A DNA stretch of 61,667 bases. It comes from a virus. Lineage: Duplodnaviria > Caudoviricetes. This document shows positions 1,010 to 60,607 of this stretch, piece after piece (position 1 is the first letter of the stretch; each line of letters begins with the position of its first letter). Below the pieces are notes generated by a model. The model had not been told where the DNA came from, did not search any database, and saw nothing but the letters and a program-made list of their open reading frames with translations. The translations under genes and the position numbers were made by a program. The stretch spans positions 1-61,667 of IMG/VR virus record IMGVR_UViG_3300005253_000118. One strand, written 5' to 3'.

Positions 1010-1023
1010 TTTCCTTTCTCCTT

Positions 1024-1851
1024 TTAAGGTTTGTTTATTATTGCGTCCCATTCAATTGTGCCCGTGATTTGAGTTGCCGGGATGTTGATAATTATGTTGG
1101 CGGTCCTGGAAATAGGTGGTTTGGGCTCGGGGGACTTTCCACCCGGTGCCACATCTTCATAGGTACTGTTGGCATCTGCCATTTTAAATTCATCATGGTA
1201 AATTGTGCGGGGAGCACCGGCGCTCCTGCCTGCTCTGTATACGCCCATTTTGAAATATGGACCGTATTCATCATTATAGCAGTTTGGACCGTTACGATTT
1301 AAAACCTTTACATGGTTTTTCCATATTTGGAGAAAGCCGTCTGATTCGTATGACCACTTGACATGAAATACCCAGTCAGTCCAAACACCTGTTTCATACG
1401 GCCCAAACCCATAATAATTTGATCCTTCTATGTCTGGCACACCACCTGGAGTAGAGTTTGGTTTTGAATCCCAACGAATATTCAATGTCCATCCGGGGTC
1501 AGTTTGCGGATGAGCGGTATATAATGTCAGTGGGGCACCTTGTCCATGGAAATCCTCCCCAATATCAAAATCAGGCCGTCCATGCCAATTAGCAACTGAT
1601 TCCCATGCTGAATTAACTTCAAAAGGTTCCGGCAAGAAAATACTGAACCCATACCAGTACTCATTCCCAACTGCATTTATCTTGCTGACCATCTTCGCCT
1701 CTGCACGGGTTTCTCCTTGCTCTAATTGGGATTGCATGCAATGAGTTCCGATCCTGGCCAATTTAGATGTCGCTGTTGGAGAGATACCTAATGGTCTAAG
1801 ACCCCCCAGGTTCCCGTCTTCAAAATTTTCTTCAAATAATAATATCGCCAT
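1024..1851 (-). CDS. Polysaccharide lyase-like (beta-jelly-roll) protein
   Basis: EYWYGFSIFLP, WH, WTDWVFHVKWS, GFLQIWKN, GPYFKMGVYR and IYHDE motifs typical of the Polysacc_lyase/heparin lyase I-like family. Confidence 0.75.
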   Translation of the reverse strand: MAILLFEENFEDGNLGGLRPLGISPTATSKLARIGTHCMQSQLEQGETRAEAKMVSKINAVGNEYWYGFSIFLPEPFEVNSAWESVANWHGRPDFDIGEDFHGQGAPLTLYTAHPQTDPGWTLNIRWDSKPNSTPGGVPDIEGSNYYGFGPYETGVWTDWVFHVKWSYESDGFLQIWKNHVKVLNRNGPNCYNDEYGPYFKMGVYRAGRSAGAPRTIYHDEFKMADANSTYEDVAPGGKSPEPKPPISRTANIIINIPATQITGTIEWDAIINKP

Positions 1852-18427: not shown

Positions 18428-18805
18428 TTATGTTGGGTCTGCTATCTCAACGTCCCAGGCAGCAACATTTACCTTTCCACCGCCGGTTAATCCTGTCGCA
18501 GTGGTGGTTGTAACGTAAAGAAGCACCGAACCTGCCACTTTCACCAACGCCACATGAGCTGCCGTGCCGGTGCTGTCGATCGAGACAGAACTTTGAGCGT
18601 TCATCTGAATTTTTCTGCCACTGGAGTCGCCATCGGCCGGTGAGCCGAAATCTGCCGAGTTGATAACCACGGACGCCAGCTTATAACTCGCTGTTGCTTG
18701 AGCGTAGGTTGTCGGCTGCGAGTTACACACACAAAGCTTGGTGGCGTTGCTCTTGATGTAATCAAGAGCTGCGTCTAATATAGCGTCTATTACTAATTTA
18801 GCCAT
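18428..18805 (-). CDS. Small virion/tail protein
   Basis: D..LDAAL.YI...QPTTYA.A...ADGD.SGRK...GTA.HVAL conserved phage family pattern. Confidence 0.6.
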   Translation of the reverse strand: MAKLVIDAILDAALDYIKSNATKLCVCNSQPTTYAQATASYKLASVVINSADFGSPADGDSSGRKIQMNAQSSVSIDSTGTAAHVALVKVAGSVLLYVTTTTATGLTGGGKVNVAAWDVEIADPT

Positions 18806-19547
18806 TGTGGTATGTCCTTAAATCTGGAAATAATTTGTTTCCCCCCGTATAGTTTAAGTATGTTTCATCGCCCATCTGATATGCCGTGTGAATCCAGAAC
18901 TTGTGCAAGTGAGCTATCAGGTGCCTAGCCTGTGAGTAATCAACCACGTTATTTACAAATGAATCCCTCAATATCCATTCCTCTTCCTCTTGTTCCGGAG
19001 TGATCTCCCAATCCTTGCTATCCCCCAATTCCTGCTCGTATTCCGTACAAGCTCTTTTGAGAATGACAGGCATGTCGGGAAGAAGGCCCTTAACCTCCTC
19101 ATACCTTTTCTGCCCCTCATCAAGTCTATTACAATAGAAATAACCCCCGTATTTCTTGCTACTGTTTTCCCTGGAAACCTCGGCCCCACACTTGCTTGGG
19201 TAATTCAGCTTCCTTTGAACGTGGTATAGCTGAAATAGTTCATCTAAAGTTCTTGGTTCACACACCACCTTCCAGCATTTCTGGCACTCGCTGTGGATCC
19301 GCTTCCAGTGAGTAAAGTAAATCTTGTGATACAGAAAACAGTCTTTCCCCATGTGCTGAATGAAAGCCCACGGTGGATGCCAAATAGGTTTTCGTACATG
19401 GTCAATCTTGCCATCTTCCCTGAGAAACAGCGTTCCGTTCTCAAACAACGGCTGGAGTTTAGAAACAATATCCCACTTACTGACTTCTAAATAATAGGGC
19501 AGAGCGTACTTCCCTAAATCTTCGAGTTTAATGTCTTCGAGTTTCAT
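18798..19547 (-). CDS. Cys-motif domain of unknown function, paralogue 1
   Basis: CQKCWKVV.EPRTL, SKCG.E, YGGYFY, VILKRACTE shared with 23081 and 29470. Confidence 0.75.
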   Translation of the reverse strand: MKLEDIKLEDLGKYALPYYLEVSKWDIVSKLQPLFENGTLFLREDGKIDHVRKPIWHPPWAFIQHMGKDCFLYHKIYFTHWKRIHSECQKCWKVVCEPRTLDELFQLYHVQRKLNYPSKCGAEVSRENSSKKYGGYFYCNRLDEGQKRYEEVKGLLPDMPVILKRACTEYEQELGDSKDWEITPEQEEEEWILRDSFVNNVVDYSQARHLIAHLHKFWIHTAYQMGDETYLNYTGGNKLFPDLRTYHNG

Positions 19548-23080: not shown

Positions 23081-24115
23081 TTAATGCGGAGAAGGATCGT
23101 TTGGATTATCCACGGGAGCACTCGGCGGGATAGCTGTCAACTCGTCATGCTCACCTATAAATTCATCTCTGAATTTCGGCCGAATCGAATCCCTAAACCC
23201 CAACGCCATGGCAACTTCATTGCGATCTGCTTCATGCTTACCCGCAGCAGCCACAAGGTCTTTTGAAAGTGAATTAAGTTTATCCCCGTTAAAATTCTTT
23301 TCCGCTACCAGACCGTTGTTAAGCATCATCTCACACTCTTCCAAGGTCTTGTCGTGATAGGTTTCATACCCCGGATAAAGCGGTTTGCCGTCCGTAAACT
23401 CCTTATAGGTCGGGTCTGCCCCGGCATACGCCCAATGAATCCACACTCGCTTTATGTGAGTGCGTACCATTTCCGGTTGATCGGCAGGGTTATTAATTTC
23501 TTCCACCTTATCCGTAAGAAAATCCTCTATCTCCATTTGTTCTTCGGTAATCTGCCAAGTAGACGATTTAGGGAACGCCATTTCAAATTCCGTACAGGCT
23601 CTTTTTAGAATAACCGGCACATCGGGAGAGATTGCGTCATTTACAGCTTCACGAACCACCTTGTAGCACTCGCGCCCGTTGGATAGCCCTTTATTATAGA
23701 AATACCCGCCATAGAGTTTCGCTGTGTATTCCCTGGCTTCTATGCCGCACTTGCTTGACATACCCAGCTTCCACTGAAGGTCTTTCAGCTTCCACAACTC
23801 GGAAAGCGACCTCGGACCCACAACTACTTTCCAGCATTCTTGACACTGGCTAGGCACAAACCATTGCCAGTGATTGAACATAATGAAATGCCAGAGATTG
23901 CATTTAAGGTTCTCTGCGTGTTTCTGGTGGAGCCACGGTGTGTTAAACCCCACGGCTTCCGTAGCCGTAGGCCGAATCATCCCGTTTGGCTTGATTAAAT
24001 AAGCACCCCTTGTAAGGGTCGGCATCAACCGGTCAATAATATCCTTTTTGTCTAACTTGCTGTAAATTCCTAAATCTTTAGAAGCCCTTGGCTTCATGTA
24101 TGAAAATTGTGACAT
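23081..24115 (-). CDS. Cys-motif domain of unknown function, paralogue 2
   Basis: CQECWKVVVGPRSL, SKCGIE, YGGYFY, VILKRACTEFE. Confidence 0.75.
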   Translation of the reverse strand: MSQFSYMKPRASKDLGIYSKLDKKDIIDRLMPTLTRGAYLIKPNGMIRPTATEAVGFNTPWLHQKHAENLKCNLWHFIMFNHWQWFVPSQCQECWKVVVGPRSLSELWKLKDLQWKLGMSSKCGIEAREYTAKLYGGYFYNKGLSNGRECYKVVREAVNDAISPDVPVILKRACTEFEMAFPKSSTWQITEEQMEIEDFLTDKVEEINNPADQPEMVRTHIKRVWIHWAYAGADPTYKEFTDGKPLYPGYETYHDKTLEECEMMLNNGLVAEKNFNGDKLNSLSKDLVAAAGKHEADRNEVAMALGFRDSIRPKFRDEFIGEHDELTAIPPSAPVDNPNDPSPH

Positions 24116-25222: not shown

Positions 25223-26299
25223 TTAATTATGCACCACAGCGTAAGAAGAGATCGTCATACAGCCGTAATCCTTGCTGGCAAATCGGACCTTCTTCATACC
25301 GAAGACGGACCCAACAGCGATCCCTTTCTCGTTGCCATAGTCAGTTACTTCCTCAAACCACTTGAACATATTGCCCTTACCAACCTTTCGCTGTGCGATC
25401 GTGTCGTAGGCGTTGCCTTGTGCAAACACACCCGCTTGGGCACCCAGCATCAGGTTTCTCCGAACATCTGTACTCGGAGAGTGAATCCGCTGAGACTCAA
25501 AAAGGATGCAACCTTCGTAGACCCCTAGCGCACCGGTGAAAAGTGGGTTTTTAAGCCCTCTCCGGTTGGCATACATCTGAATATCGCTCCACTTGGTGTA
25601 AGTGGAAGCCGCTATATTCAGTTTCAGGTCGGTTACGGAAAAGGGATGCAGAACCACAACGTAATACTCTTCACCATCCACAATTGCCGGACGGATCGGA
25701 GGTGTAATGGTCTTTGCCTTTTCCTTGGCAAAGTTCAGGTCTGCCAGCGCAATCTGAGAGGTAGAACCTAAATTACCTTCATCAGTTACAATCGCACCTG
25801 TGTGGCCTACAGTGCCGGTCACTACATAGTGATCGGTATCAGCAACCACCCCGGTGTTACCGGCAAAAGACAGGCCAGTGTCCCCACCAAGATACCTGAA
25901 CATGTAATCGTCGTACTTACCGGCATACCAGTCTGAGAGGTTCGTCTGCGCGTCGCTTCGCATGTTGTGAAGCGTTCTTTGCTGACTCATATGCTTGAAG
26001 GAATGTGCGTTCCGAAGCTGGTTAATTTTCACTGAATCCTGTTCATAAACCAGAGGCTCTTCAAAGTCCTTCATCCGGTTATCGCCTTCTATGCCGGCGT
26101 TCGTCATTTGCATCAGGAGGTCAAACTTAATTTCATCCCCCTTGCCTTTCTCCAGGTCTTTAAGACGCTGAAGTATCGCTTTTTTACCGTCACCCAGAAA
26201 CTTCTTGAAATAGGTAGCTTTTAGGGCTTCCCTCATCAGAAGGCTGGACCAAATCTTGACGGTTTGTGCGTCGTTAGTACCGAATTCTGTTACGGCCAT
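25223..26299 (-). CDS. Major capsid protein (N4-gp56/DUF4043-like)
   Basis: F.TND...VK.WS, L.K..GD.I.F.L, EE.L......I.Q.R.A, YYV..LHP, KNPLFTG.LG.Y.G, DYGN.KG motifs. Confidence 0.9.
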   Translation of the reverse strand: MAVTEFGTNDAQTVKIWSSLLMREALKATYFKKFLGDGKKAILQRLKDLEKGKGDEIKFDLLMQMTNAGIEGDNRMKDFEEPLVYEQDSVKINQLRNAHSFKHMSQQRTLHNMRSDAQTNLSDWYAGKYDDYMFRYLGGDTGLSFAGNTGVVADTDHYVVTGTVGHTGAIVTDEGNLGSTSQIALADLNFAKEKAKTITPPIRPAIVDGEEYYVVVLHPFSVTDLKLNIAASTYTKWSDIQMYANRRGLKNPLFTGALGVYEGCILFESQRIHSPSTDVRRNLMLGAQAGVFAQGNAYDTIAQRKVGKGNMFKWFEEVTDYGNEKGIAVGSVFGMKKVRFASKDYGCMTISSYAVVHN

Positions 26300-29469: not shown

Positions 29470-30171
29470 TTAATAGTTAACGCTTTGGACAACCAATTTG
29501 TCCCAATAATTCGGGTCGTCAAAAAACCCGGTTACCACTTTTTTAACCGTGCGATCCCCTATCGCAATCGCGTGTTTTATCCATTCGACCTTTATTTCGT
29601 GTTTCAACTTGTCGTTTTGCTGCTCATGCCAATATATCGAGCAGTTGAACTTCTTTTCCAAATCAAAAAACTCATTTAGGTCATGCTCCCGGGTCTGGTC
29701 TGCCGCCTCGGTTGCTTCCCACTCGGTTGATGGTATCCTCTCTTCCATCTCAGTGCAACCTTTTTTAATTACAGTCGGTAATGGGGTGATATATGAAGAA
29801 ACTATTTTATGGGCTTCATCAAGGCTGTTTGTATAAATAAAACCCGCCCAGGGTCCAAAAGTGTAATCCCTTAAATCCATGCCACATTTGCACATAAACC
29901 CCGACTTTTCTAAAATATCTGATAATCCAAATAATCCCGAAAGCGTGTCGGGTCTAATCGCCACCTTCCAACATCGATTCCGGCAAAAATCCGGAATGAC
30001 ACCAAAATGCTCAAAGTACGCTGCAAGCCAGTAGATACAGCGCCTCTCTGGATCGGACTTGAAATATATCCAAGGCGTTGTCCCACGGTATTCAGCAAAT
30101 GTTATCTTCCCATCACCGTTCTTGCACCACATCGGGTCCGCAAGAATCTTATTAACTCTTTTTTCCTCCAT
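29470..30171 (-). CDS. Cys-motif domain of unknown function, paralogue 3
   Basis: CRNRCWKVAIRPDTL, CKCGMD.R, WAGFIY, VIKKGCTEME. Confidence 0.75.
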   Translation of the reverse strand: MEEKRVNKILADPMWCKNGDGKITFAEYRGTTPWIYFKSDPERRCIYWLAAYFEHFGVIPDFCRNRCWKVAIRPDTLSGLFGLSDILEKSGFMCKCGMDLRDYTFGPWAGFIYTNSLDEAHKIVSSYITPLPTVIKKGCTEMEERIPSTEWEATEAADQTREHDLNEFFDLEKKFNCSIYWHEQQNDKLKHEIKVEWIKHAIAIGDRTVKKVVTGFFDDPNYWDKLVVQSVNY

Positions 30172-31382: not shown

Positions 31383-33446
31383 TCATGCAGCGTTAGTTTT
31401 CTGCTGCTGTCTTTGGGCGTTAACTTGGTTCGATCTGACAATAAAATCAAGCTCCTGTCGGCGCTCCTCTAGCCCGAGTTTCGCGGTATCTATCTGGTGT
31501 TTCTGAGCGCCCTTTGTCTTTTGTTCGTCTAGTTTCTCATGCCCGAGCTGAGTGGATGTATCGATCTTCTTCATGCTCGACTCCATATTTGCCTGAATCT
31601 TCAACTTTTCTAACTCAATCTGCTGTTGCTGCGCCTGTTGCGCCGCCTGTTGCTGCTGTTTAATAAACTCTAACCACCGGCGCTTCTCAGATGCGGAGAT
31701 ATCAAGTTTTTCAATAACTGCTTCCGGGTCAACCTCAAACCCCTTCTCCCGCATTTCCATGAACACTGCCAGGTCCATAACACGTTTTGATTTGTTCGCT
31801 GGGGACTCTTCGGTATCGACATTATATTTTAAGTTTCTCAGATCCCGTATGTTAGCCTGCTGCCCGTGCTGTTTATCATAAATGATACCGTTTTGGATAA
31901 CGTATCTATCTGTCTGCCCAAGAATGTCCATTATCTGCTCATCGGGCATAAATTTTACGACGATCGTCTGTGTCCGTTTATACATAGCCTCTTTGTGCAT
32001 CCGGCCGCTCTTAAACAGGGGTTTCAACAACATCATCCCCTGCTGCTGTCTCAACCGGATAACGACGCCAGGCTCTTGGCGGCCACGGTCCATACCAAGA
32101 AGGTCCGGGTTCCCGGCCGGGCTTACCCGTTTCATCATGTTTTGCGCGGCCTCCTCTAACGCCATGGGCGCGGCGGGCAGGGCTGGTATTTTGCGATCCT
32201 GGATTTTGCCCTTAATGAGAGCCCCTTCCGTTAGAAGCGTTGTACCCCCGACATCTCTTAGAGACGCCTCGCCCTGCGCCTGATCCACAAAAGCGCCTTC
32301 TTCCACGTAAACCCCGGGTTGGACCTGATTATTCAACCAATTCAGGGTTTGAGACCATCGCTTATTAACTTCCCGTTGCGGGTCTTTCATCGGTCTGACT
32401 ATTCCTGAATTGTTACCAGTACGCTTTGAAGGGTCGCTGTACGCAAAGCAGGGGACTATGGAAAACCCGTCATAGGGTAGGGGAGAATCACCATCAAAGA
32501 GAACCCTGTCTCCAATAAACTGAAGCCACTTAGCCTTTTTATCCATCACGGTCACATACTCGAATTCTTGCCCGTAAAGCTGCGGATAAACTCCCTCTAG
32601 TTTTTTCAAGTTCTTTTCTTCAAACTCCATGCCCTTATTGGTCTCAGGATGAAAACCGTAATATCGCTTATATGACTGCCAGTATTCCATGTGAATCACA
32701 CGCACCATGCGTTTGGTCCTGTCAAAATAAGTTATATCAAGAGGGGTATTGTAATCAGAAGTGTCTTCGTCTTCCAGATCAGGCGACATCTCGAACATAT
32801 CATCCGCTTTCATGGAAGCAAGCGGTCCCGACATCTGACCGGTCGCCAGTATTTCCTCTAAATGCGCCGCGTGCTTTGGATACCGTATCTTAAAGTCCTC
32901 GGCTGTTACCCATTTCTCCCAAAAGATATGACTGGCATCCAGAATATCCTTTCTTCGTGAAGTGGGGTCTTTTTTAACTTCATGGACAGGAATACTTGGG
33001 AATTCGATAATAATATGTCCCAATCGCTTCGGATCCGGGTTGAAATCGATGGCGCCCCAGCCGCGGCCACAGATTATCGAAGACTCAAAAACGTCATCTT
33101 CCGCTTCCTCGGCTCCGGCCTTTTTTCTTACAAAATCAACGGTGTTGTTTAAAACTTCGCATAAAAAGTCGTCTCCGGGTTCAACGGGTGTGGCAAAAAA
33201 CCGAACGCGGGTGTCCTCATTGAGACCCATCACCAACTCAACTGAGTTTCTGATAAGGTTAAAGGTCATTAAATGGCGCTTCTCCTCGGCCATTATATTT
33301 ATTTCCGCGTCGGTCCACTGCTTATTATCTACAAAATTAAAGTCCTCTCGCGCCTCGGTTTGAAAATCGGTATCGGCTGTAGCGGCCTCGAGATGCAGTT
33401 TCTTCGCTCTCTTTAGTTTTTCAGTTTTACTTAATCCGTCGAACAT
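31383..33446 (-). CDS. Portal protein (P22-like)
   Basis: ED..F....QW, TFN.I, G.GW, F..VP.F, G.VRPMKDPQRE.NKR.S motifs; Q-rich barrel C-terminus. Confidence 0.9.
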   Translation of the reverse strand: MFDGLSKTEKLKRAKKLHLEAATADTDFQTEAREDFNFVDNKQWTDAEINIMAEEKRHLMTFNLIRNSVELVMGLNEDTRVRFFATPVEPGDDFLCEVLNNTVDFVRKKAGAEEAEDDVFESSIICGRGWGAIDFNPDPKRLGHIIIEFPSIPVHEVKKDPTSRRKDILDASHIFWEKWVTAEDFKIRYPKHAAHLEEILATGQMSGPLASMKADDMFEMSPDLEDEDTSDYNTPLDITYFDRTKRMVRVIHMEYWQSYKRYYGFHPETNKGMEFEEKNLKKLEGVYPQLYGQEFEYVTVMDKKAKWLQFIGDRVLFDGDSPLPYDGFSIVPCFAYSDPSKRTGNNSGIVRPMKDPQREVNKRWSQTLNWLNNQVQPGVYVEEGAFVDQAQGEASLRDVGGTTLLTEGALIKGKIQDRKIPALPAAPMALEEAAQNMMKRVSPAGNPDLLGMDRGRQEPGVVIRLRQQQGMMLLKPLFKSGRMHKEAMYKRTQTIVVKFMPDEQIMDILGQTDRYVIQNGIIYDKQHGQQANIRDLRNLKYNVDTEESPANKSKRVMDLAVFMEMREKGFEVDPEAVIEKLDISASEKRRWLEFIKQQQQAAQQAQQQQIELEKLKIQANMESSMKKIDTSTQLGHEKLDEQKTKGAQKHQIDTAKLGLEERRQELDFIVRSNQVNAQRQQQKTNAA

Positions 33447-34670: not shown

Positions 34671-36353
34671 TTACCGCGTCCAGGCGGTTCCTCGTCTCCT
34701 GATTCTCCAATACTGAGCAACTAACTTACTAATGTTCTGCGTTCCTATTTTCTCAGAGGCCAGCATACAATAGTTCGTTGCGTGCCGATAATGGTCTTCT
34801 TTTGTACCCACAGTCACAAATTTATATATTTTATCCCCCGTGTCGCGGTCCTCATGCAGAATCTTAGCAACATTTGTCATCTGTTTAGCATAGTCTTCCA
34901 TGGCGCTGGATCCTTTCACCGGAAGTTCCAGCCTTCCGCTGTGTGCAACAAGTTCATGTGAGGCGTCAAGAAGTTCGGTTCGGTTACCATAAATTTCCTG
35001 GTCCTTATCATTCCATGCTGTCGGCCCCCGCTGTTTCCCTTCCTGATAGCCGCACAAATAAACCGAGTTTCTCTTCTCATGTGTCTGAAAATCCCTGACC
35101 TTATTGGTTTCTGGGTATTTATCAATCACCGTACACCGAACTCCGAACTCCTGGGCTATTTTGTGAAGATGATTAAAGGGATCTTCGCCTTTAACCTTTT
35201 CAATCTTACCAATTTTGATAACTTTCAAAAGGCTGACACTTGGTTTTACACCAATTACATAATGAAGCGCCTTACCGACATCAACTCCCATGCAAGCCGG
35301 CCCGTCACTATTTTCCGCCATGACGTCTTCTCTGCAACAGGCATTAACCTGATTCACCCCCAAGCGATTCTCTGTATCGATATAGGGCATACCCAACATC
35401 GAGTTATAAACCTCGCCCAGGTTCCCGTCAGGCGGGTGCCTAAAAGCCTGCAGGATTTCTGTGGGAGATATGAAAGCAGAGTTTAAAGCGGAAATCCACC
35501 ACCCGACCATATCTTCCGCTCTTTCAGGAAACCGGGCTAACCAATAACCGTCCCGGGTGAAAATCTCCTTCCCACATTTCATACATTTTCGAAACGCCTC
35601 TAATTTTCCCTCAACCCTACGCTCCCCCAGGCAATCAGGGAACTCCATTTCAAGGCAAGTTTCATGGTTACACGCCTTGCATCTAATCATCCACACACGC
35701 ATGTCAGAGGTGTTATACAGCCTGTCGATACCATGATCCGGTATGGTGGGTGTTGACAAATATGCTTCCTGACGAACCTTAGAATGGAACATACGAGCCA
35801 ATGCAAGTAGAATCATAGCAACGTCCATCTCATCAACCTCGTCAAAAACCACAATATCAACAGGAGCAGATTTTAGTTTTGTACTGCTCTTTTTACCACT
35901 GGAGCCACCAATCTTTGTTGTTGCCCTCGCGCCATGCAAATACAACATAGCATTGGCTATCCTTTTCATAGAGGCGTTGTCTGTGTTTCTAACATACTGT
36001 GCAATAACAGAATTAGCCGCTATCAGCGGATCAAATCTGGCTTTTGTAAATTCATGCGCGTCATCCCCTGTAGGAAAGAGATACATGGCCCCCTGCTTAT
36101 ATTTGCCGTATATCAAGCCGTGCATGACCTTGAGGATCCACATAGCCGTAGCACCCCACTGTGCGCTCTTCATCATACACTGTTTGCGTGCATTGCACTG
36201 AATAGGATCGACCTGATACAAATGCCCGTCCAGCGTGTACGGCATCCCTTCCGTAAACTTAATCTTATTAACTCTGAGCCAGTACAGAATATCCAGGGCG
36301 CCGCCTTGTTCGACGATCTGTTCCGGTGTGAGTTTTATTGCCGGTATTGCCAT
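34671..36353 (-). CDS. terL: Terminase large subunit (gpA-type)
   Basis: KSAQWGAT Walker A-like, VVFDEVD Walker B, STPT coupling motif, Zn ribbon, GVDVG nuclease, DHY.HA. Confidence 0.9.
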   Translation of the reverse strand: MAIPAIKLTPEQIVEQGGALDILYWLRVNKIKFTEGMPYTLDGHLYQVDPIQCNARKQCMMKSAQWGATAMWILKVMHGLIYGKYKQGAMYLFPTGDDAHEFTKARFDPLIAANSVIAQYVRNTDNASMKRIANAMLYLHGARATTKIGGSSGKKSSTKLKSAPVDIVVFDEVDEMDVAMILLALARMFHSKVRQEAYLSTPTIPDHGIDRLYNTSDMRVWMIRCKACNHETCLEMEFPDCLGERRVEGKLEAFRKCMKCGKEIFTRDGYWLARFPERAEDMVGWWISALNSAFISPTEILQAFRHPPDGNLGEVYNSMLGMPYIDTENRLGVNQVNACCREDVMAENSDGPACMGVDVGKALHYVIGVKPSVSLLKVIKIGKIEKVKGEDPFNHLHKIAQEFGVRCTVIDKYPETNKVRDFQTHEKRNSVYLCGYQEGKQRGPTAWNDKDQEIYGNRTELLDASHELVAHSGRLELPVKGSSAMEDYAKQMTNVAKILHEDRDTGDKIYKFVTVGTKEDHYRHATNYCMLASEKIGTQNISKLVAQYWRIRRRGTAWTR

Positions 36354-36354
36354 A

Positions 36355-36543
36355 TTATTTATCTTGTTTCAGCACTGTGTAATTACTGCACGTTAGGTTG
36401 TTATTTACTACTGGCTCCGAATTCGCCCTATCACCATATTTATAATAAATGATTTTAAAGGGATCATGGCACTCCCCGCTTTGGTCATCTGAAAGTGGCA
36501 TGGGGTGAAAATGCCCGCATGTTTCACACGTTGGTCCACTCAT
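36355..36543 (-). CDS. Small Cys-rich protein
   Basis: CETC.HF...GEC...C. Confidence 0.5.
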   Translation of the reverse strand: MSGPTCETCGHFHPMPLSDDQSGECHDPFKIIYYKYGDRANSEPVVNNNLTCSNYTVLKQDK

Positions 36544-36760
36544 TATTACCCCCCCTTATTTGGTCAATAGTAATCCTGTCTTCTTGATAAAGCGTTACGC
36601 CGGAATATTTGCCTATTTCACCGCTAAAGATCGGATTCTTGAGCCCGCGCGGTTTCCATCCGCCACGGAGTTGCCCAAGTGTAGGAAATATTTCTCCTGG
36701 AAAAAGCGTTAACCCAAGGACTGCCGCTGCGGTTCGTTTTATGAATGAACGTCTTTTCAT
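36524..36760 (-). CDS. Twin-arginine-signal mini-protein carrying capsid-derived segments
   Basis: MKRRSFIK; RGLKNPIFSGEIGKYSG matches MCP 247-263; YQEDRITIDQIR matches MCP 85-96. Confidence 0.75.
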   Translation of the reverse strand: MKRRSFIKRTAAAVLGLTLFPGEIFPTLGQLRGGWKPRGLKNPIFSGEIGKYSGVTLYQEDRITIDQIRGGNNEWTNV

Positions 36761-37093
36761 TTGGAAAGCAAAATAGTATCAACCCGTTTACCATCAACAA
36801 AGTAAAAACAATTCACATCTTTCAACCTTGAATCTATTATAATCTTCCCCAACGGTGTCTTAACAATAAGGCGGTCAATCCCCGAGCCCATCTCAATTTC
36901 TTCAGTCAATTTAAGTAAAGATTTCGGCCATTTATGCTGCAATCCTATCATCGAGTTTATCAATCGCATCAAAAATACACTCCATACACGCATCGTATAG
37001 TGTCTTGATTTTTTCTATCGTTAGCTCGCCCTCAATATCAGTATTGATTGATTTAATCATTTTTCTTTCCCTCTAATAAATAGAAAAAGTCGG

Positions 37094-37378
37094 TTATAAA
37101 TCACTTAATGGAGCGCCCTTTGAAACTTCATCAAATAACTGTCTCCATTCACTGTTATCTATAATACCAAACGTCACAGCACACTGGATTATACCCTTTC
37201 TATATTCCCTGGTTTTTCTCAGTCTTAATATTTTCAACAACTCTACTTTTCTATAACCGGAAGTTTTAGGGGGTACACTCAAAACAACCTTTCTAAGTTC
37301 ATTAAATTCTTTCTGCGTCCTAAGTAAACTAGCAATCATCCTGTTCATGGTATAAATTTGGGATTTCAGTTTATCCAT
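37094..37378 (-). CDS. Hypothetical protein
   Basis: RBS AGGAGGGG. Confidence 0.5.
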   Translation of the reverse strand: MDKLKSQIYTMNRMIASLLRTQKEFNELRKVVLSVPPKTSGYRKVELLKILRLRKTREYRKGIIQCAVTFGIIDNSEWRQLFDEVSKGAPLSDL

Positions 37379-37391
37379 TACCCCCTCCTAA

Positions 37392-37446
37392 AATAGAAAA
37401 GGGCGCATGCTAAGAGGGTGAGCTCTCACCAGCGCCCTTTCTATTC
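37392..37446 (-). terminator. Long stem-loop/terminator
   Basis: AATAGAAAAGGGCGC ... GCGCCCTTTCTATT. Confidence 0.55.
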
Positions 37447-37486
37447 TCTAAATCCGCAAGAGAGCTACCCCTACGGGTTTTGTTTG

Positions 37487-37750
37487 TTATTTATTTAGTT
37501 TTGAGAAATAAGACTCTTCCAGTGCGTCTTTCCAAATCGTTTTAGACCAAATCTTAACGGCTTTTGAGTCGTTAGTGCTAAAATCCCAGACATTCACGCC
37601 CTCATACCGACCTATCTCCCCAGTAAAGATCGGGTTTTTCCTCCCCCTACCGGCCGAAACCGCCACATCTGACGGAATTAAGGCTTTAGGAACCACAAAA
37701 GCCAGCCCTAACAGAGCGGCCGCCCGCTTTATGAATGATCGTCTATTCAT
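37487..37750 (-). CDS. Twin-arginine-signal mini-protein carrying two capsid-derived segments
   Basis: Start MNRRSFIK; RGRKNPIFTGEIGRYEG (MCP 247-263), then DFSTNDSKAVKIWS..ALEESYFSK (MCP 5-33). Confidence 0.8.
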   Translation of the reverse strand: MNRRSFIKRAAALLGLAFVVPKALIPSDVAVSAGRGRKNPIFTGEIGRYEGVNVWDFSTNDSKAVKIWSKTIWKDALEESYFSKLNK

Positions 37751-37755
37751 TTCAA

Positions 37756-37965
37756 TCACTCCCCTAAGAACACATGGCAATAATCATAACGTCTAATAAT
37801 TTTATAATATGCCTTCCCGTCAATCATAATCGGCGCCATTCCGTTTTTTTTCATCCGCTCCACCGCCTTATCTATGTCAACGACGGTAAGTTGCTTGTGC
37901 TTAGGAGTCTGATCTAATATAAACGTATCGTTATAAATTTTTAATTTATCTTCAGCCTTATTCAA
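37756..37965 (-). CDS. Mini-protein with capsid-like segment
   Basis: Likely TTG start; LTVVDIDKAVERMK...PIMIDGKAYY resembles MCP 183-213 IALADLNFAKEKAK...PAIVDGEEYY. Confidence 0.6.
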   Translation of the reverse strand: MNKAEDKLKIYNDTFILDQTPKHKQLTVVDIDKAVERMKKNGMAPIMIDGKAYYKIIRRYDYCHVFLGE

Positions 37966-38269
37966 AACACCCCTCAGCCTCCTCTTCCCCAAGCTCAGCA
38001 CCACAGGTCGCATTCAAACAGTAATAAGTCGAGACCGGTATCAGCTTATTCTTGCTCATTAAATTACCCGGATGAACCCCCGGACACTTCTTCATTGTCA
38101 TGCACGGCTGAAACAAAGTCCCGCCGCACTTCGAACATTCCGCATTCTTTAACTCCAACACCGCGGCATTGGTGAGGTCAAATTCCCGGGGAGGGTTGAT
38201 TCTTCCTGGGCCGACTGCCTCCCCACTACCCGGTAGAATTATCCGGCTTTTCACTTTCTTTTGACTCAT
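37958..38269 (-). CDS. Zinc-ribbon protein
   Basis: CSKCGG..F ... YYC....CG. Confidence 0.55.
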   Translation of the reverse strand: MSQKKVKSRIILPGSGEAVGPGRINPPREFDLTNAAVLELKNAECSKCGGTLFQPCMTMKKCPGVHPGNLMSKNKLIPVSTYYCLNATCGAELGEEEAEGCFE

Positions 38270-56270: not shown

Positions 56271-57419
56271 TTATTTCCATAGCTTCAACTGCTTAATTTC
56301 TTTCTCGATCCTCGGGATCCCAATGTCATTAATATAGGCCTCTGACAACTCAATCATAATAAATTTCCGGTTGTGCTTATAAGCGACGATAGCGGTTGTC
56401 ATGCTGCCGCCGAAGGGGTCAAGGACTGTGCAGGGTTTTTGCTTCACACCCTTATATTCCGGGCCTCCAAAACCCGTATGAGAACACGTTGGCTCCCAGC
56501 CGATGGTTTTGGATTCTATAATAGGTGGTTCCACTTTATCGAGTTGCAAGAGCGGCACGCTGCTACAATATTCGTTTTTTCGAACCCAAGGACTCCCGCA
56601 CTCCACACAGCATCCTTTCTCGCTCGTTCCTGCTAAGATACAAGGCTCTATCAGCTTCGGAGGGAAGGTGGCGAAATGGGCTTCTGGAAACGGGTGCGTT
56701 GCTACATTCCAGACTGAGCGTTTGTTACGCTTTGTCCCTGGTGGTAAATCGCACATAGCAGCTTGAAATGAATCGTTGTTTTTGATACCGCTCCCCGCTT
56801 TAGCTGTCTTTTGCATAGTCATTGCAGGCTTCCCGTTTTTACCCCTGCTGTGGGTATTCGGGCTCATTTTCTCTTTTATAGCCTCCGCATCATAAAAATA
56901 CTTAGCGGATTTCGTAAGCAAGAAAATGTATTCATGGGATTTCGTGCACCTGTCGGTCACGCTCTCGGGCATAGGATTGGGTTTTTTCCAGATTATCTCT
57001 CTGTCTTGCCCATGCCGCCATATCCTCTCTTCGAGTTGCCAACCACAGTGAGGACAGTAAACTTCTACCTCTTCAATTATATCCTGGCGCAACCACCACC
57101 CATCGGCTTGAAGGGCAATAGCGACTCGGGCCGGGATCATGCAAAGGTCTTTTGGTTTGAGGCCATTAGCCTTTGTCGGGGTATATTTTGAATTGCCAAT
57201 ATTTCTTTTTTTTATAGTGGGATCGCCACCGCCGGGTTGGGAATGGTTGACATAACTATCCCCAAAATTCAGCCAAACAGTCCCGTCCTTCCTAAGCACC
57301 CTCCGAACCTCCCGGAATATCTCAACCAAATGGCATACATAACAGCTATCCAATTTCACTCTAAAATATTTCTGTAAATGTGGTGGCACTTTATACGCAG
57401 GTAAAACAGGACTTGACAT
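56271..57419 (-). CDS. DNA adenine/N4-cytosine methyltransferase, C-terminal part
   Basis: EVRRVLR.DG..WLN.GDSY, W.KPNPMPESV.DR, HFATFP, VLDPFGGS.TT (motif I); lacks motif IV. Confidence 0.85.
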   Translation of the reverse strand: MSSPVLPAYKVPPHLQKYFRVKLDSCYVCHLVEIFREVRRVLRKDGTVWLNFGDSYVNHSQPGGGDPTIKKRNIGNSKYTPTKANGLKPKDLCMIPARVAIALQADGWWLRQDIIEEVEVYCPHCGWQLEERIWRHGQDREIIWKKPNPMPESVTDRCTKSHEYIFLLTKSAKYFYDAEAIKEKMSPNTHSRGKNGKPAMTMQKTAKAGSGIKNNDSFQAAMCDLPPGTKRNKRSVWNVATHPFPEAHFATFPPKLIEPCILAGTSEKGCCVECGSPWVRKNEYCSSVPLLQLDKVEPPIIESKTIGWEPTCSHTGFGGPEYKGVKQKPCTVLDPFGGSMTTAIVAYKHNRKFIMIELSEAYINDIGIPRIEKEIKQLKLWK

Positions 57420-57440
57420 TTGCCCTCCAATGGCTATCTT
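57413..57440 (+). promoter_or_regulatory. Putative promoter of the HNH gene, overlapping the MTase C-part start
   Basis: TTGACA-N16-TATCTT. Confidence 0.4.
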
Positions 57441-57459
57441 GGGTTAGAGCTTAATAAAA

Positions 57460-58089
57460 ATGGTTTATAGAATACGAACAAAATATTGTAAGCAATGTGG
57501 TATTGAGTTTTCAGAAAGAATGCCCGAATCAAGGGTATTTTGTTCTGTCTCTTGTCGCCAAACATTCCGAAACGATCCTGTTCGCAACCCTTCCAAATCA
57601 CCCGAAGCCCGTAGAAAGATTTCTGAATCGCGGAAAGGGAAGCCGACAACCCTCGGCAGGCCGTGTTCAGAAAAAACAAAGAAAAAGATTTCAAAATCAT
57701 TAATAGGGACTTCGACTGGGAGGAGGCCAACACAAAAAGCGATTGATGCTTTTGTAAAAGGTGGTGAAAAAAACTTACTTCGTGCGTCTGGTTCTGAGCA
57801 TCATATGTGGAAGGGTGGTCATTCAAAAGAAAGACAGGCTCGTTATAAAGATCCTGAATATATTGAATGGCGCACAAAATGTCTCGAAAGGGATAGTTAT
57901 ACTTGTCAAAAATGCGGTGTAAGGAATGGCATGGGCGAGACAATAATCTTGCAAGTCCACCATAAAATTCATTACTGGGAACGCCCTGCCCTTCGATATG
58001 ATCTTGACAATGGGACATCTCTTTGTATTGGTTGCCATCGAAAAGCTCACAAGGGTATGAAAAAACCAAAAAATCCACGATCAGATTAA
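57460..58089 (+). mobile_element. NUMOD3-HNH homing endonuclease inserted antisense within the methyltransferase gene
   Basis: SPEARRKISES and SEKTKKKIS NUMOD3 motifs; WKGG; RD.YTCQ.CG..VHH....NG.SLC..CH. Confidence 0.85.
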
Positions 58090-58539
58090 CCCCTCTTTTT
58101 TCAATTCATCCATCACATACTCTCGTTCTTTTTTTGTAAGGTCATCTCGAAGTTCCATAAACGGCCTTCCGCAGTCCGGTGTCGGTTCAAGGCCGAATGA
58201 GCCCCGCCAAGCGTTGCAGCGTTGGCAGAATTGGCCTTGTTTCAATTCTGTCTTGAAGCCAGCCCTTGCCGGTTCGGTTCCACGAGTCTCACTGAAACCA
58301 TTTGCGCCATCATGGTCTCTTTTGGGTACATATTTTTTTATGCTTTCATCTCCCCACTCATGCTTACACGCCCCATCCCCACCCCAAATCATCGGTGGAA
58401 GTCCGTAATCCCTCAACCCCCAATAAGGAGGCGAAGTCACGACACAGTGAACGCTTTCGGCCTCCATACCGCTTAATACCTCCAAGACATGGCCTTGATA
58501 GATTATACCGGCATCGGTCTCAAAATATGGCTTAATCAA
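58081..58539 (-). CDS. DNA methyltransferase, N-terminal part (catalytic SPPY motif)
   Basis: Likely TTG start coupled to ParB; IYQG..L..L, VVTSPPYWGLRDY, GLEPTP. Confidence 0.85.
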   Translation of the reverse strand: MIKPYFETDAGIIYQGHVLEVLSGMEAESVHCVVTSPPYWGLRDYGLPPMIWGGDGACKHEWGDESIKKYVPKRDHDGANGFSETRGTEPARAGFKTELKQGQFCQRCNAWRGSFGLEPTPDCGRPFMELRDDLTKKEREYVMDELKKEGLI

Positions 58540-59099
58540 ATAGCAGCTCCTTTCGATGGAATAAAAATCTCCCCACATTGCGGACATTCGACCTCTTTGG
58601 GTCCGTCGTTTCTAGACCCCGGAGGATCAACCATATTCGGATTTGTTATTTCGTCTATTTCGTTTAGGTCGTATGCCGTCAACTCCATATCAATATCAAG
58701 TACTTTCAATTCGCTTAATAATTCGGACAGCTTATCATTATCACGCACGGCCAATTCCGCAATATAATTATCGGCCACTAAGTCAGCATGTTCCAACGCC
58801 TCGCTCTCATAGTCCTGATAATCCACCGGAGCTTTATTGATGCCCGCCTTGAAAGCTGCTTCTAATCTGCCATGACCCCTTACGATAAGACCCGACCGGT
58901 TTGATACTGTTATGGGTAACCGCCACCCCTGCTTTGATATAATATGGCTTAATTTTTCGATCTGTTTTACCGGGTGCGTATTCGGGTTTTTCGGATTCAT
59001 TATTAATTCTACGCACGGGACTATCTTGTCATGGGCGCACCATACTGGGACCTTGCCGATGGTTGCGCGTGGTTTGATTTTGGTTTTTGGTTTTTTCAT
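58536..59099 (-). CDS. ParB N-terminal domain protein
   Basis: Start MKKPK; NPKNPNTHP..QI, GW..PI.V, GHGRLEAA, ADN motifs; C-terminal CPQCG. Confidence 0.85.
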   Translation of the reverse strand: MKKPKTKIKPRATIGKVPVWCAHDKIVPCVELIMNPKNPNTHPVKQIEKLSHIISKQGWRLPITVSNRSGLIVRGHGRLEAAFKAGINKAPVDYQDYESEALEHADLVADNYIAELAVRDNDKLSELLSELKVLDIDMELTAYDLNEIDEITNPNMVDPPGSRNDGPKEVECPQCGEIFIPSKGAAI

Positions 59100-59341
59100 T
59101 TGGTTATAAACTCCTTTATTCCTTTTGATTCCATTTTCCATGAACCGGTGCCTATAATCTCTTGCCAACCACCATCGATCCGAATAGATACGATGGCGTG
59201 TTTCCCATGAATGGTCTCTGTGCTGGGTGTTACAATCGGCCTCGGTATCGAATAAAAGACCTTCGGGACACACGGCACTATCAATCCACCGGCCATCATG
59301 TAGCCTAGTCTTTGAAGGAATTTTCGGCGGGTTAGGATCAT
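59096..59341 (-). CDS. Twin-arginine-signal mini-protein
   Basis: MILTRRKFL. Confidence 0.5.
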   Translation of the reverse strand: MILTRRKFLQRLGYMMAGGLIVPCVPKVFYSIPRPIVTPSTETIHGKHAIVSIRIDGGWQEIIGTGSWKMESKGIKEFITK

Positions 59342-60607
59342 TTGGGTGTCTCCAAATAGGCCCAAAGAGAAACATCAGAACATATTCTTATGAACTGACT
59401 ATCTAAAATACGGAAAACCATTGTCGCATCTCTATTTTTATATTGCTGCGAATAAACAAGACACCGTTTATTTTTATCGGGCTTCTCGGTTTTTTCGTGC
59501 CATATAAGTTCGGTTTTTATGACTCCGTGACATTTCATTTAAACAACCTCCTTTTTGTAATCGTATGGGTAGGTCTGATCCTCGTAACCACATCGGGAAC
59601 ACGTCCACAAGACACTTTCTGAGAAAGCTTTCGTCTCAACCCCTAAAAATAATTGGGCAGGACTACTTTCTATGTATTTCACGCGCCATGTACGATAATT
59701 CGGATTACACTTTGGACAATGGGCCTCGATTTCATTAAATAATTTCATTTAAACAACCTCCCCAACCCCCGGCCCGTTATCTTGCCTGCTGCCCGGCGTG
59801 CTATTCTTTTGCCGACCCTGCCCTTTTGGACGGAATTGAAATCGCCTAAAAGTCGCGCTATGAAATATAGGATTTGTCGCATTTTGATACCTCCTCTTTC
59901 CTTGCCGTCTTTGTCCCCTGGGTGTCTTTAAATTGAGCCCGAAATAATTCTGATGCAACCGCATCTTTGCAAAATTCTGCAAATGCTTCGCTTGATATAT
60001 TCCCTATGCATTTCTTAACCCAATCATCGCTCAAAGATATTTTGCATTCCATCTCTACCCCCTTCATCCATGATGCTTGCCACAAATAGGGTCTTGTAAA
60101 AGCATAAGCTCTTTTATTTCCCTATCCCGGTCTTCCTGTGATTCCATTGAAAAATGCTTTGTTACGGGTTTTTGTTCTGGTTTTTTAAATAGCTTTTTAA
60201 TCCATAGTTTTATTTTCATCTCTACCTCCTCACTTCATTCCCCATATTTTATTGTTTCTGTTGCCTCATCATAATGTTCACCTTCATCTATGATAAGCGC
60301 CTCTCTACATTCGTCACAAAGATATCCACCGCCGGGCATTTTATATATGATCCCCCTGACAACATTCGTGTAACATCCTTCACATGGAACAGACATATTC
60401 ACCTCCTGCATGTTTTTGCAATCCCTCTTGAATCTGTTCATCTTCCATATAATACAAATCGGATCCGCGACACTCTGGACATCTCGGTTGCGGATGGCAC
60501 ATATCGGCAGCGTTTGATATCATTTGGCACAAACGCAAGTCCGGGTGCCTGTGCCATATATCCCCCAGTAGTTTTAATATCGGGTCGATTCTGTCTGGGT
60601 CTCTCAT
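59338..60607 (-). other. Cluster of small hypothetical ORFs (59338, 59539, 59858, 60235, 60380)
   Basis: Tightly packed short ORFs with RBS; 60380 has the conserved MRDP.RI..IL..L...W...PDLRL.Q motif. Confidence 0.55.

What the first reader, a model, noticed from the sequence alone, without database searches (positions are those of the whole stretch)
36524..37965. Mini-proteins built from shuffled major-capsid fragments, two behind twin-arginine signals
Seen: ORF 37487-37750 is an RRSFIK signal plus MCP 247-263 (RG.KNP.FTG..G.YEG) followed by MCP 5-33 (F.TND...VKIWS......AL...YF.K, about 14 of 29 identical), i.e. permuted order. ORF 36524 is an RRSFIK signal plus MCP 247-263 and MCP 85-96. 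ORF 37756 resembles MCP 183-213. All are diverged from the resident MCP yet are intact short ORFs. Known: several defence systems (e.g. CapRel, Lit) are triggered by capsid proteins. Inference: capsid-epitope decoys against capsid-sensing immunity, or dominant-negative inhibitors of competing phage assembly, possibly targeted to the membrane. A strong candidate for an undescribed system.
Basis: partly seen in the sequence, partly recalled or inferred. Interest (0 to 1): 0.85.

Follow-up and report, generated by a model that had tools for sequence, protein, structure and literature searches.

The report
Tat-signal mini-proteins made of capsid pieces
Two tiny genes of an uncultured marine-sediment phage carry a bacterial export signal followed by short, reshuffled copies of pieces of the phage's own capsid protein, and they turn out to belong to an undescribed family of such genes in uncultured phages whose role, perhaps blocking rival phages, is still unknown.

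Summary
ORF 37487-37750 (miniA, 87 aa) and ORF 36524-36760 (miniB, 78 aa), both on the minus strand just upstream of the large terminase, start with a leader that passes NCBI's twin-arginine model. The rest is local copies of the resident major capsid protein (MCP, 25223-26299), in permuted order (BLASTP E 4e-9, 6e-7, 9e-9). No other small ORF of the window matches a large protein this well.

They are not debris. About 20 relatives of 75-129 aa exist in metagenomes. They share the leader but carry different combinations of MCP segments, and synonymous sites are saturated while the leader protein is conserved.

The same leader precedes fragments of other resident structural proteins in other uncultured phages: a second MCP family, a large protein downstream of TerL, a tail-sheath end, and a whole TerL nuclease-domain copy with changed catalytic positions. 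Long ORFs with the same leader pattern look, by eye, like ordinary bacterial Tat enzymes.

The locus is accessory. A close relative has different cargo behind 84%-identical leader DNA, and one variant lacks the miniB block.

Function is untested. My best guess is exported mimics of virion-protein interfaces that exclude related phages. I found no description in print.

The parts
37487..37750 (-). miniA, 87 aa: Tat-type leader plus two MCP-derived modules in permuted order
   Evidence: ORF list. BLASTP against the MCP. TIGR01409 17.6 bits against a 16.7 cut-off. Exactly the same protein occurs on 4 contigs.
37673..37750 (-). miniA leader (residues 1-26: MNRRSFIKRAAALLGLAFVVPKALIP). A small -3/-1 site, VSA|G, follows residue 33.
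   Evidence: TIGR01409. Crude site scan. The leader DNA is 84% identical to that of a relative whose cargo differs.
37592..37672 (-). miniA module 1 (residues 27-53), copy of MCP 238-263: end of helix alpha5, the KNP[LI]F.G loop and a hairpin in the A-domain
   Evidence: 15/26 identical, E 6e-7. phrog_334 positions 252-278, E 1.1e-4. Secondary structure of the MCP model.
37496..37591 (-). miniA module 2 (residues 54-85), copy of the MCP N-arm helices, residues 3-34
   Evidence: 15/32 identical, E 4e-9. Family profile against MCP profile: probability 93%, E 2.8e-7. The resident MCP is the best of 30 MCPs for this module. 28/32 nt are identical to MCP gene 26247-26278 at 37545-37576.
36524..36760 (-). 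miniB, 78 aa: Tat-type leader plus the KNP module plus a variable tail; its start overlaps the upstream stop (ATGA)
   Evidence: TIGR01409 18.6 bits. Homologues P0004 and P0005 are 76% identical.
36572..36649 (-). miniB KNP module (residues 38-63), copy of MCP 247-272
   Evidence: 14/26 identical, E 9e-9.
36542..36592 (-). miniB tail (residues 57-73), possible copy of MCP 84-100 (returning strand of the E-loop); weak and ambiguous
   Evidence: 5/17 identical, E 0.014, overlapping the previous match. The tails of P0004 and P0005 differ.
37756..38013 (-). ORF3, 85 aa, no leader. Residues 41-73 (37795-37893) resemble MCP 182-216. Probable third MCP-derived piece, immediately upstream of miniA.
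   Evidence: weak. E 1e-5 against the same module of P0023. A different gene sits here in the relative L165.
37391..37447 (-). Strong hairpin followed by a U-run, after miniA and before the AGGAGG of the next gene: likely terminator. It is shared by several contexts in the metagenomes.
   Evidence: Fold -32.9 kcal/mol, z -2.9. Depth about 4 times that of the flanks, with contig breaks at both ends. One copy in the window.
36345..37390 (-). Variable block (94-, 42-, 78-aa ORFs, miniB, 62-aa ORF), absent from some variants
   Evidence: One contig of run X1 joins 36344 to 37391. In relative L165 the miniA-type gene abuts TerL.
25223..26299 (-). Resident major capsid protein, source family of the modules
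   Evidence: PF13252 E 4.3e-48, phrog_334 E 2.3e-63. PDB 8h89 E 4.3e-78. AF2 model pLDDT 75, pTM 0.75.
34671..36353 (-). Large terminase, immediately downstream of the mini-gene cluster (context)
   Evidence: PF05876 E 2.5e-21, phrog_675 E 9.2e-89.
59096..59341 (-). Third ORF with a twin-arginine-like leader (MILTRRKFLQRLGYMMAGGLIVPCVPK...). Its cargo matches no large protein of the window.
   Evidence: Motif scan and ORF list. No hit. No Pfam hit.

Best explanation
miniA and miniB are real, translated accessory genes of a complete, uncultured marine-sediment phage. They belong to an undescribed family of 'leader-cargo' mini-proteins. The leader has the form M-N-R-R-x-F-[FLI]-K, then 11 residues, then [AVS]-P-K (the Tat-type features are recalled knowledge). 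Behind it sit one to three short segments copied from a self-assembling structural protein of the same phage, here the MCP: the N-arm helices, the A-domain KNP loop and hairpin, and possibly an E-loop strand. In a solved relative (GP4) these parts make contacts between subunits. Shown here: the architecture, the family, purifying selection, the accessory and cassette-like behaviour, and the likeness of the leader to those of long ORFs that look like bacterial Tat enzymes. Inferred: the Tat pathway carries the small cargo to the periplasmic side of the inner membrane, either released or still anchored. There the cargo acts as a mimic of the virion-internal surfaces (capsid, portal, sheath, terminase) that normally hold the parts of an incoming related phage that cross the periplasm, namely ejection proteins, tail tube or DNA. 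The result would be superinfection exclusion aimed at kin. I put about 0.85 on the first layer (a real, selected leader-cargo family) and about 0.35 on the second (periplasmic interface mimicry used for exclusion).
For: Architecture and significance. Tat leader: TIGR01409 is above its cut-off in 5 of 10 family members scanned, including both window proteins; 3 more scored below it and 2 had no hit. The same DNA pattern for the leader gave 80 readable ORFs in JGI metagenomes. 36 are complete ORFs of 60-180 aa (33 unique). 30 are long ORFs that I read, by eye, as ordinary Tat-exported bacterial enzymes. 14 are under 60 aa, cut by contig ends, or 181-250 aa. Family: HMMER over 1.84 billion representatives gave 17 hits at E<=1e-3, 13 of them 75-97 aa. 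A profile search gave 17 hits, 8 of them new. Modules recombine between members: KNP+N-arm, C-terminal strand+N-arm, KNP+C-terminal strand, KNP+A-domain strand/helix, spine helix. These assignments are partly by eye. 15 of 16 mini-proteins with the NP.F.G motif have E or Q after the G, against 0 of 49 MCPs. Selection: miniA against miniB gives pS 0.74 and pN 0.39. For the leader alone in four pairs, pS is 0.59-0.69 and pN 0.02-0.22. Own-protein cargo elsewhere: L077 mini against its own MCP (E 5e-7 and 7e-6) and L087 mini against its own 700-aa protein (E 1e-13). These were the only 2 of 430 small ORFs in 10 phage loci to match a large ORF at E<1e-4. L091 mini matches its own phrog_283 MCP. 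A TerL nuclease-domain copy (37-40% identical) has D changed to E or Q and a DD pair lost. L181 carries a tail-sheath C-terminal fragment (E 3e-11). Accessory and moron-like; more distant relatives lack such ORFs; a terminator follows miniA. Interface elements: the GP4 paper, passages read, mapped through the alignment and the model. The AF2 model of miniA has no compact fold (pLDDT 58, pTM 0.33), but each module keeps the local secondary structure it has in the MCP.
Against: Export was not shown, and no RNA or protein data exist. No periplasmic partner is known. MCP A-domain and E-loop segments are not known to touch ejection proteins. The natural partners of all the cargo parents are cytoplasmic during assembly, which fits a cytoplasmic mode of action at least as well. 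No integrase was found among the 29 ORFs scanned, so a prophage-type exclusion role is not indicated; lytic phages with exclusion genes are known (recalled). The modules are not significantly more conserved than the rest of the MCP: 996 of 10000 random placements did as well. No cultured phage carries a member in 5 tblastn searches, so nothing ties the family to a phenotype.
Confidence: 0.35

Rival explanations
1. Cytoplasmic decoys or dominant-negative inhibitors. The fragments bind a host immune sensor that recognises capsid, portal or terminase, or they cap the assembly interfaces of a co-infecting relative. The Tat leader then tethers the complex at the membrane or expels it, as signal-less partners ride out with Tat substrates in some hydrogenases (recalled).
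For: The cargo parents seen (MCP, a large post-TerL protein, TerL nuclease domain) overlap the phage proteins known to trigger Avs, CapRel and Lit (recalled). The TerL copy has its catalytic positions changed, as expected of a binder rather than an enzyme. The cargo consists of subunit-contact elements. miniA is predicted to lack a fold of its own. The nearest ESM-Atlas cluster by features is a periplasmic [Fe] hydrogenase small subunit (score 0.88, a lead only).
Against: No such use of Tat is known. Sensors such as Avs are very large. Fragments of 25-35 aa are unlikely to reproduce a folded epitope. The modules are not enriched for conserved MCP columns.
Confidence: 0.2
3. Neutral by-products. 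Illegitimate recombination repeatedly pastes structural-gene scraps behind a leader that happens to stay open. Alternatively the scraps serve as silent donor cassettes for gene conversion of the MCP gene.
For: Cargo is swapped between close relatives. The order is permuted. A 32-nt patch is 87.5% identical between miniA and the 5' end of the MCP gene. Members are rare and mostly singletons.
Against: pN is far below a saturated pS in all 8 pairs tested. The ORFs are intact and translationally coupled. The KNP module has a signature of its own (E/Q after the G) across distant members. The same design occurs with two MCP families and with other structural proteins. Apart from the 32-nt patch there is no DNA similarity to the MCP gene.
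Confidence: 0.08

Closest known systems
Twin-arginine (Tat) signal peptides of periplasmic redox enzymes (TIGR01409)
   Same: There is an RR-x-F-[LI]-K n-region and a mildly hydrophobic h-region (mean Kyte-Doolittle 0.95-2.3 in 23 leaders). A proline and a lysine follow in the c-region. The same DNA pattern retrieves long ORFs that I read by eye as Mo-oxidoreductases, DUF1501 proteins and the like.
   Different: The cargo is 40-60 residues copied from a phage structural protein, with no cofactor domain. The genes lie in phage genomes. Export itself is untested.
Phage_capsid_3 / N4-gp56-type HK97-fold major capsid proteins (PF13252, phrog_334, TIGR04387; solved relative GP4 gp2, PDB 8h89)
   Same: Two or three local segments are clearly homologous.
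   Different: There is no HK97 fold. The order is permuted. miniA covers about 21 of the 376 profile positions, and its Pfam score is 12.7 against a cut-off of 23. The protein is derived from the family; it is not a member.
Exported or membrane superinfection-exclusion proteins of phages (T4 Imm/Sp, P1 Sim, TP-J34 Ltp, HK97 gp15; all recalled, none searched with)
   Same: They are small accessory genes with an export or anchor signal, placed at module borders, and they act on the entry of related phages. This is the proposed way of working only.
   Different: None of them is known to use a Tat leader or to be built from copies of the phage's own structural proteins. No sequence similarity was tested or claimed.
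HXS antiphage system (Li et al., Nat Commun 2026, PMC13128918; abstract and passages read)
   Same: It is a precedent that a small periplasmic effector can block phage genome entry.
   Different: It is host-encoded, matured by radical-SAM enzymes, binds DNA through HxS repeats, and is unrelated in sequence.
Capsid-derived interference and sensing: PICI/P4 capsid-remodelling proteins, T4 Gol peptide with Lit, CapRel (recalled)
   Same: Short regions or homologues of capsid proteins are used in conflicts between phages, satellites and hosts.
   Different: Those act in the cytoplasm and carry no export signal. None is a shuffled concatenation of MCP segments.

Membership tests
Tat signal peptide (TIGR01409) | Score above the curated cut-off of the TAT_signal_seq model, with the twin arginine in an S/T-R-R-x-F-L-K-like motif | tested here: met
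   miniA 17.6 bits and miniB 18.6 bits against a cut-off of 16.7. The motifs are NRRSFIK and KRRSFIK.
Tat signal peptide (TIGR01409) | A moderately hydrophobic h-region followed by a c-region with a helix breaker and a basic residue, and a small -3/-1 cleavage site | tested here: inconclusive
   h-region mean Kyte-Doolittle is 1.79 (miniA) and 1.22 (miniB). miniA has P-K and a VSA|G site. miniB has only TLG|Q or LRG|G sites. The rule used is crude.
Tat signal peptide (TIGR01409) | Tat-dependent, RR-dependent export | not testable with these tools
   This needs reporter fusions in wild-type and tat-deleted laboratory strains.
Phage_capsid_3 major capsid protein (PF13252) | A full-length domain match above the gathering score | tested here: not met
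   miniA scores 12.7 bits against 23, over positions 250-270 of 376. miniB has no hit.
Phage_capsid_3 major capsid protein (PF13252) | Local homology to the family | tested here: met
Pseudogene or recombination debris | Disrupted frames, no relatives, neutral evolution | tested here: not met
   The ORFs are intact and coupled. Relatives exist. pN is far below pS.
Superinfection-exclusion protein | A small accessory gene with an export or anchor signal, variable among relatives | tested here: met
Superinfection-exclusion protein | Blocks entry or growth of a superinfecting phage | not testable with these tools
   There is no cultured host or phage. Five tblastn searches of cultured-phage records found no member.
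Anti-defence decoy | Binds a host sensor of phage structural proteins without activating it | not testable with these tools

The most novel reading that the evidence does not exclude
Uncultured phages of several lineages share a modular weapon. A portable Tat leader is fused to bait segments copied from the oligomerisation surfaces of their own capsid, portal-region, terminase or sheath proteins. The bait seizes its natural partner, either a rival phage's assembling or entering parts or a host immune sensor that reads those same proteins. The Tat machinery then removes, tethers or jams the complex. Cargo is swapped between relatives behind the conserved leader, much as toxin tips are swapped in polymorphic toxin systems.
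Probability: 0.25. Interest if true: 0.95.

Novelty: categorically new. Interest (0 to 1): 0.8.

Why it matters
If these proteins work as mimics of structural-protein interfaces, they would be a new class of phage conflict gene, one that can be recognised from sequence alone: a Tat leader plus a paralogous scrap of a resident structural gene. That would also give the Tat pathway a role in phage biology that has not been described. It would explain a set of small 'hypothetical' ORFs at packaging-module borders in uncultured phages. It would also show that phages reuse pieces of their own virion genes as building blocks. Even if the function differs, the family gives a clean, testable case of repeated exon-like shuffling in viruses. 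The same leader is joined to fragments from at least two capsid families, a terminase, a tail sheath and another large protein.

Tried and rejected
1. Leader as a DNA or RNA repeat rather than a peptide: rejected. Synonymous sites in the leader are near saturation (pS 0.59-0.69) while pN is 0.02-0.22.

2. 'The fragments come from the most conserved MCP parts': not supported. Module columns have mean conservation 0.684 against 0.642 for the rest, and 996 of 10000 random placements of the two window modules did as well.

3. IMG/VR scan with the mature-part alignment: 49 loci, all long MCP frames (190-467 aa, 4 cut by contig ends) and no mini-proteins.

4. Genome-contig scan with P0002: only leaders of ordinary bacterial enzymes of 299-447 aa. 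The viral scan with P0002 found only an unrelated 319-aa leader protein.

5. Viral scan with P0023: nothing.

6. PHROGs on 17 and then 32 leader mini-proteins: only 2 hits, to a major head protein and to tail sheath.

7. Expression: no RNA holder listed. The laid runs are DNA contigs only.

8. Complex prediction (MCP plus mature miniA) was not available, so binding to the MCP was not examined.

10. The record behind L165 is not held for whole-record searches, so that phage's own MCP could not be compared with its cargo.

11. Cultured-phage examples: none in 5 tblastn searches. The L095 cargo hit only the TerL of the Tunturiibacter phages, whose gp2 has no leader.

12. The 4 long HMMER hits (P0008, P0010, P0015, P0017) match through short repeats. 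Only P0017 was looked at; it is a repeat protein, so I set all four aside.

13. The sigma-70 and terminator consensus scan was at shuffle level. The hairpin was instead assessed by folding.
Full report
WHAT THE WINDOW IS. The window is a whole IMG/VR virus record of 61,667 bases, rated 100% complete by CheckV. Nearly all large ORFs lie on the minus strand. The major capsid protein (MCP) is 25223-26299 (358 aa; Pfam PF13252 Phage_capsid_3 E 4.3e-48; phrog_334 E 2.3e-63). The nearest solved relative is GP4 gp2, PDB 8h89 (E 4.3e-78). The large terminase is 34671-36353 and the portal is 31383-33446. The DNA occurs in marine-sediment metagenomes of two studies.

CHECK OF THE OBSERVATION. miniA (37487-37750, minus strand, 87 aa) matches the MCP in two places, in permuted order. 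Residues 27-51 match MCP 238-263 (15/26 identical, E 6e-7). Residues 54-85 match MCP 3-34 (15/32 identical, E 4e-9). miniB (36524-36760, minus strand, 78 aa) matches MCP 247-272 (14/26 identical, E 9e-9). The claimed second piece (MCP 84-100) is weak (E 0.014) and overlaps the first match. ORF3 (37756-38013) matches MCP 182-216 only weakly (E 1e-3 pairwise, E 0.035 at window level, hhalign probability 45%). It does match the same module in family member P0023 (E 1e-5). miniA and miniB are paralogues (31/60 identical, E 2e-16).

As a control for chance I compared 179 small minus-strand ORFs with 39 large ones. Only miniA and miniB scored below 1e-3. At the DNA level the only similarity to the MCP gene is a 32-nt patch inside the N-arm module, with 28/32 identical (37545-37576 against 26247-26278). 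Both leaders pass TIGR01409 (17.6 and 18.6 bits, cut-off 16.7). Both genes sit in tight operon spacing. A strong hairpin with a U-run follows miniA (-32.9 kcal/mol, z -2.9).

A FAMILY, NOT DEBRIS. HMMER with miniA against 1.84 billion representatives gave 17 proteins at E<=1e-3, 13 of them 75-97 aa. miniB has two homologues at 76% identity. A profile of 13 members found 17 proteins, 8 of them new. Read side by side, all carry the leader followed by different combinations of MCP segments:
- the KNP loop and hairpin plus the N-arm (P0006, P0009, P0011, P0012, P0018, P0022);
- the C-terminal strand plus the N-arm (P0013, P0020, and L152);
- the KNP module plus the C-terminal strand (P0004, P0002, P0007);
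- the KNP module plus the A-domain strand and helix 190-225 (P0021, P0023, P0026);
- the spine helix (P0027).

Several of these assignments are by eye. Those tested are the N-arm module (family profile against MCP profile, probability 93%, E 2.8e-7), the KNP module (TIGR04387 or phrog_334 hits) and the ORF3 module.

The KNP module of the mini-proteins has its own signature. 15 of 16 members have E or Q after the glycine (the exception is P0002), against 0 of 49 MCPs. This points to descent within the mini-protein lineage. By contrast, the N-arm module of miniA is closest to the resident MCP among 30 MCPs, and the two modules of P0013 rank 1st and 2nd against the MCP of its own phage.

Selection. 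For miniA against miniB, pS is 0.74 and pN 0.39. In seven other pairs of leader-cargo genes, pS is 0.60-0.82 and pN 0.19-0.37. For the leader alone, pS is 0.59-0.69 and pN 0.02-0.22. dS is saturated, so the ratios are rough. The direction is clear, and it shows that the leader is conserved as a peptide.

THE LEADER AND THE WIDER PHENOMENON. The leader has a fixed form: M-N-R-R-x-F-[FLI]-K, 11 residues, [AVS]-P-K. A DNA pattern for it found 22 loci in IMG/VR, all ORFs of 73-247 aa. In JGI metagenomes it found 85 stretches, of which 80 were read. 36 are complete ORFs of 60-180 aa (33 unique). 30 are long ORFs that look, by eye, like ordinary bacterial Tat substrates. 14 are shorter than 60 aa, cut by contig ends, or 181-250 aa. 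So the phage leaders cannot be told apart from the leaders of these long ORFs.

In other phages the same leader precedes other cargo:
- a fragment of the phage's own MCP of a different family, phrog_283 (L091; L090);
- 55 residues of the phage's own 700-aa protein downstream of TerL (L087, E 1e-13);
- a tail-sheath C-terminal fragment (L181, E 3e-11);
- a whole paralogue of the TerL nuclease domain, placed directly after TerL, 37-40% identical, with the first acidic catalytic position changed to E or Q and a C-terminal DD pair lost (L095, L105, L106). The identification of these positions as catalytic is recalled.

In 10 IMG/VR loci, 430 small ORFs were compared with the large ORFs of the same locus. 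The only two that matched at E<1e-4 were leader mini-proteins. PHROGs knows none of these families apart from the two fragment hits.

CONTEXT AND VARIABILITY. In the window the genes lie at the border before TerL. In L077 the gene lies between portal and scaffold/MCP. TerL lies within 6 kb in 6 of 10 IMG/VR loci. Among 43 further loci with only 1.5-2 kb of flank, 7 have TerL or portal next door, and others have RecT, primase, nuclease or glycosyltransferase genes. Tandem pairs occur, in the window and in G003.

The locus is accessory. Phages with 50-54% TerL identity have no such ORFs upstream of TerL. One contig of run X1 joins 36344 to 37391, skipping the miniB block. Several contigs share the miniA leader DNA but diverge in the cargo. 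In the 64,994-base relative (L165), P0002 sits directly before TerL. Its leader DNA is 84% identical over 129 nt, its cargo is different, and a different gene replaces ORF3. No integrase was seen among the 29 ORFs scanned.

STRUCTURE. The AF2 model of the MCP (pLDDT 75, pTM 0.75) and the GP4 paper (PMC9698820, passages read) place the modules as follows:
- in the N-arm (helices 11-27 and 30-34);
- in the returning strand of the E-loop (85-101);
- in the spine helix (110-138);
- in the A-domain (185-230);
- in the region after helix alpha5 at the capsomer centre (237-268);
- in the C-terminal strands (325-353).

According to that paper these regions make the contacts within and between capsomers. 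My mapping is by alignment, which is inference. The modules are not significantly more conserved than the rest of the MCP.

miniA itself is predicted without a compact fold (AF2 pLDDT 58, pTM 0.33; ESM Atlas pLDDT 0.45). Each module keeps the local helix or hairpin that it has in the MCP.

HOW IT MOST LIKELY WORKS. Shown: a conserved, selected, accessory family built as a Tat-type leader plus fragments of the phage's own structural proteins. Inferred: the cargo reaches the periplasmic face of the membrane through Tat. The parents of the cargo (capsid, portal region, terminase, sheath) are the proteins that, in the virion or the packaging motor, hold the parts that later cross the periplasm: ejection proteins, tail tube and DNA. 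The simplest single reading is therefore a periplasmic mimic that intercepts those parts of an incoming related phage, which is superinfection exclusion (about 0.35). A host system that blocks genome entry from the periplasm is a functional precedent (PMC13128918).

The main rival (about 0.2) keeps the action in the cytoplasm, as decoys for sensors of structural proteins or as caps on a rival's assembly interfaces, with Tat tethering or expelling the complex. A role in the phage's own assembly or lysis timing (about 0.1) fits the position of the genes but not their dispensability. Neutral debris or silent conversion cassettes (about 0.08) fit the shuffling and the 32-nt patch but not the selection. 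The remainder is 'something else'.

NOVELTY. Seven full-text searches found no description of Tat-leader proteins built from phage structural-protein fragments (one search was a PDB-code look-up). Supplementary files were not consulted. No cultured phage record carries a member in five tblastn searches, which may explain why the family has gone unnoticed. I rate it as categorically new in architecture, with function open.

Noticed in passing
window 59096-59341 (-): A third small ORF has a twin-arginine-like leader (MILTRRKFLQRLGYMMAGGLIVPCVPK...). It lies in another frame over the start of the long 58536-59375 ORF, whose real start is probably further in. Its cargo matches no large protein of the window.
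   Followed up: partly
window 37391-37447: The hairpin after miniA has about four times the depth of its flanks in the metagenome contigs. Contigs break at both of its ends with different neighbours, so it is a shared element among several phage variants or loci.
   Followed up: partly
window 56271-58587: An N6/N4 DNA methylase appears split into 58081-58587 (N-terminal part) and 56271-57419, with an HNH endonuclease gene on the opposite strand (57460-58089) between them. This could be an intron or a mobile insertion.
   Followed up: no
window 18798-19547, 23081-24115, 29470-30171 (-): Three paralogous proteins of 233-344 aa share a C..CWKV...P..L.EL ... VILKRACTE motif. They are scattered through the structural module and have no Pfam hit.
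   Followed up: no
window 206-1851 (-): A Clp-protease-like protein with an N-terminal secretion signal (206-1051) overlaps a polysaccharide lyase gene (1024-1851) at one end of the genome.
   Followed up: no
L095 2001-2741, L105, L106, L108: In a group of IMG/VR phages a leader-bearing paralogue of the whole TerL nuclease domain follows TerL directly. The first acidic catalytic position is changed to E or Q and a C-terminal DD pair is lost. The nearest cultured TerL belongs to the Tunturiibacter phages, which lack the extra gene.
   Followed up: partly
L181 1158-1571 (-): A 138-aa leader protein has cargo that matches the C-terminal end of tail-sheath families (phrog_10581 E 3e-11).
   Followed up: no
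L020 / L021 8313-12891: An unrelated IMG/VR phage has three consecutive large proteins with secretion-type N-termini, one of them a MNRRSFIK leader on a 319-aa protein, in what looks like a tail-fibre region.
   Followed up: no
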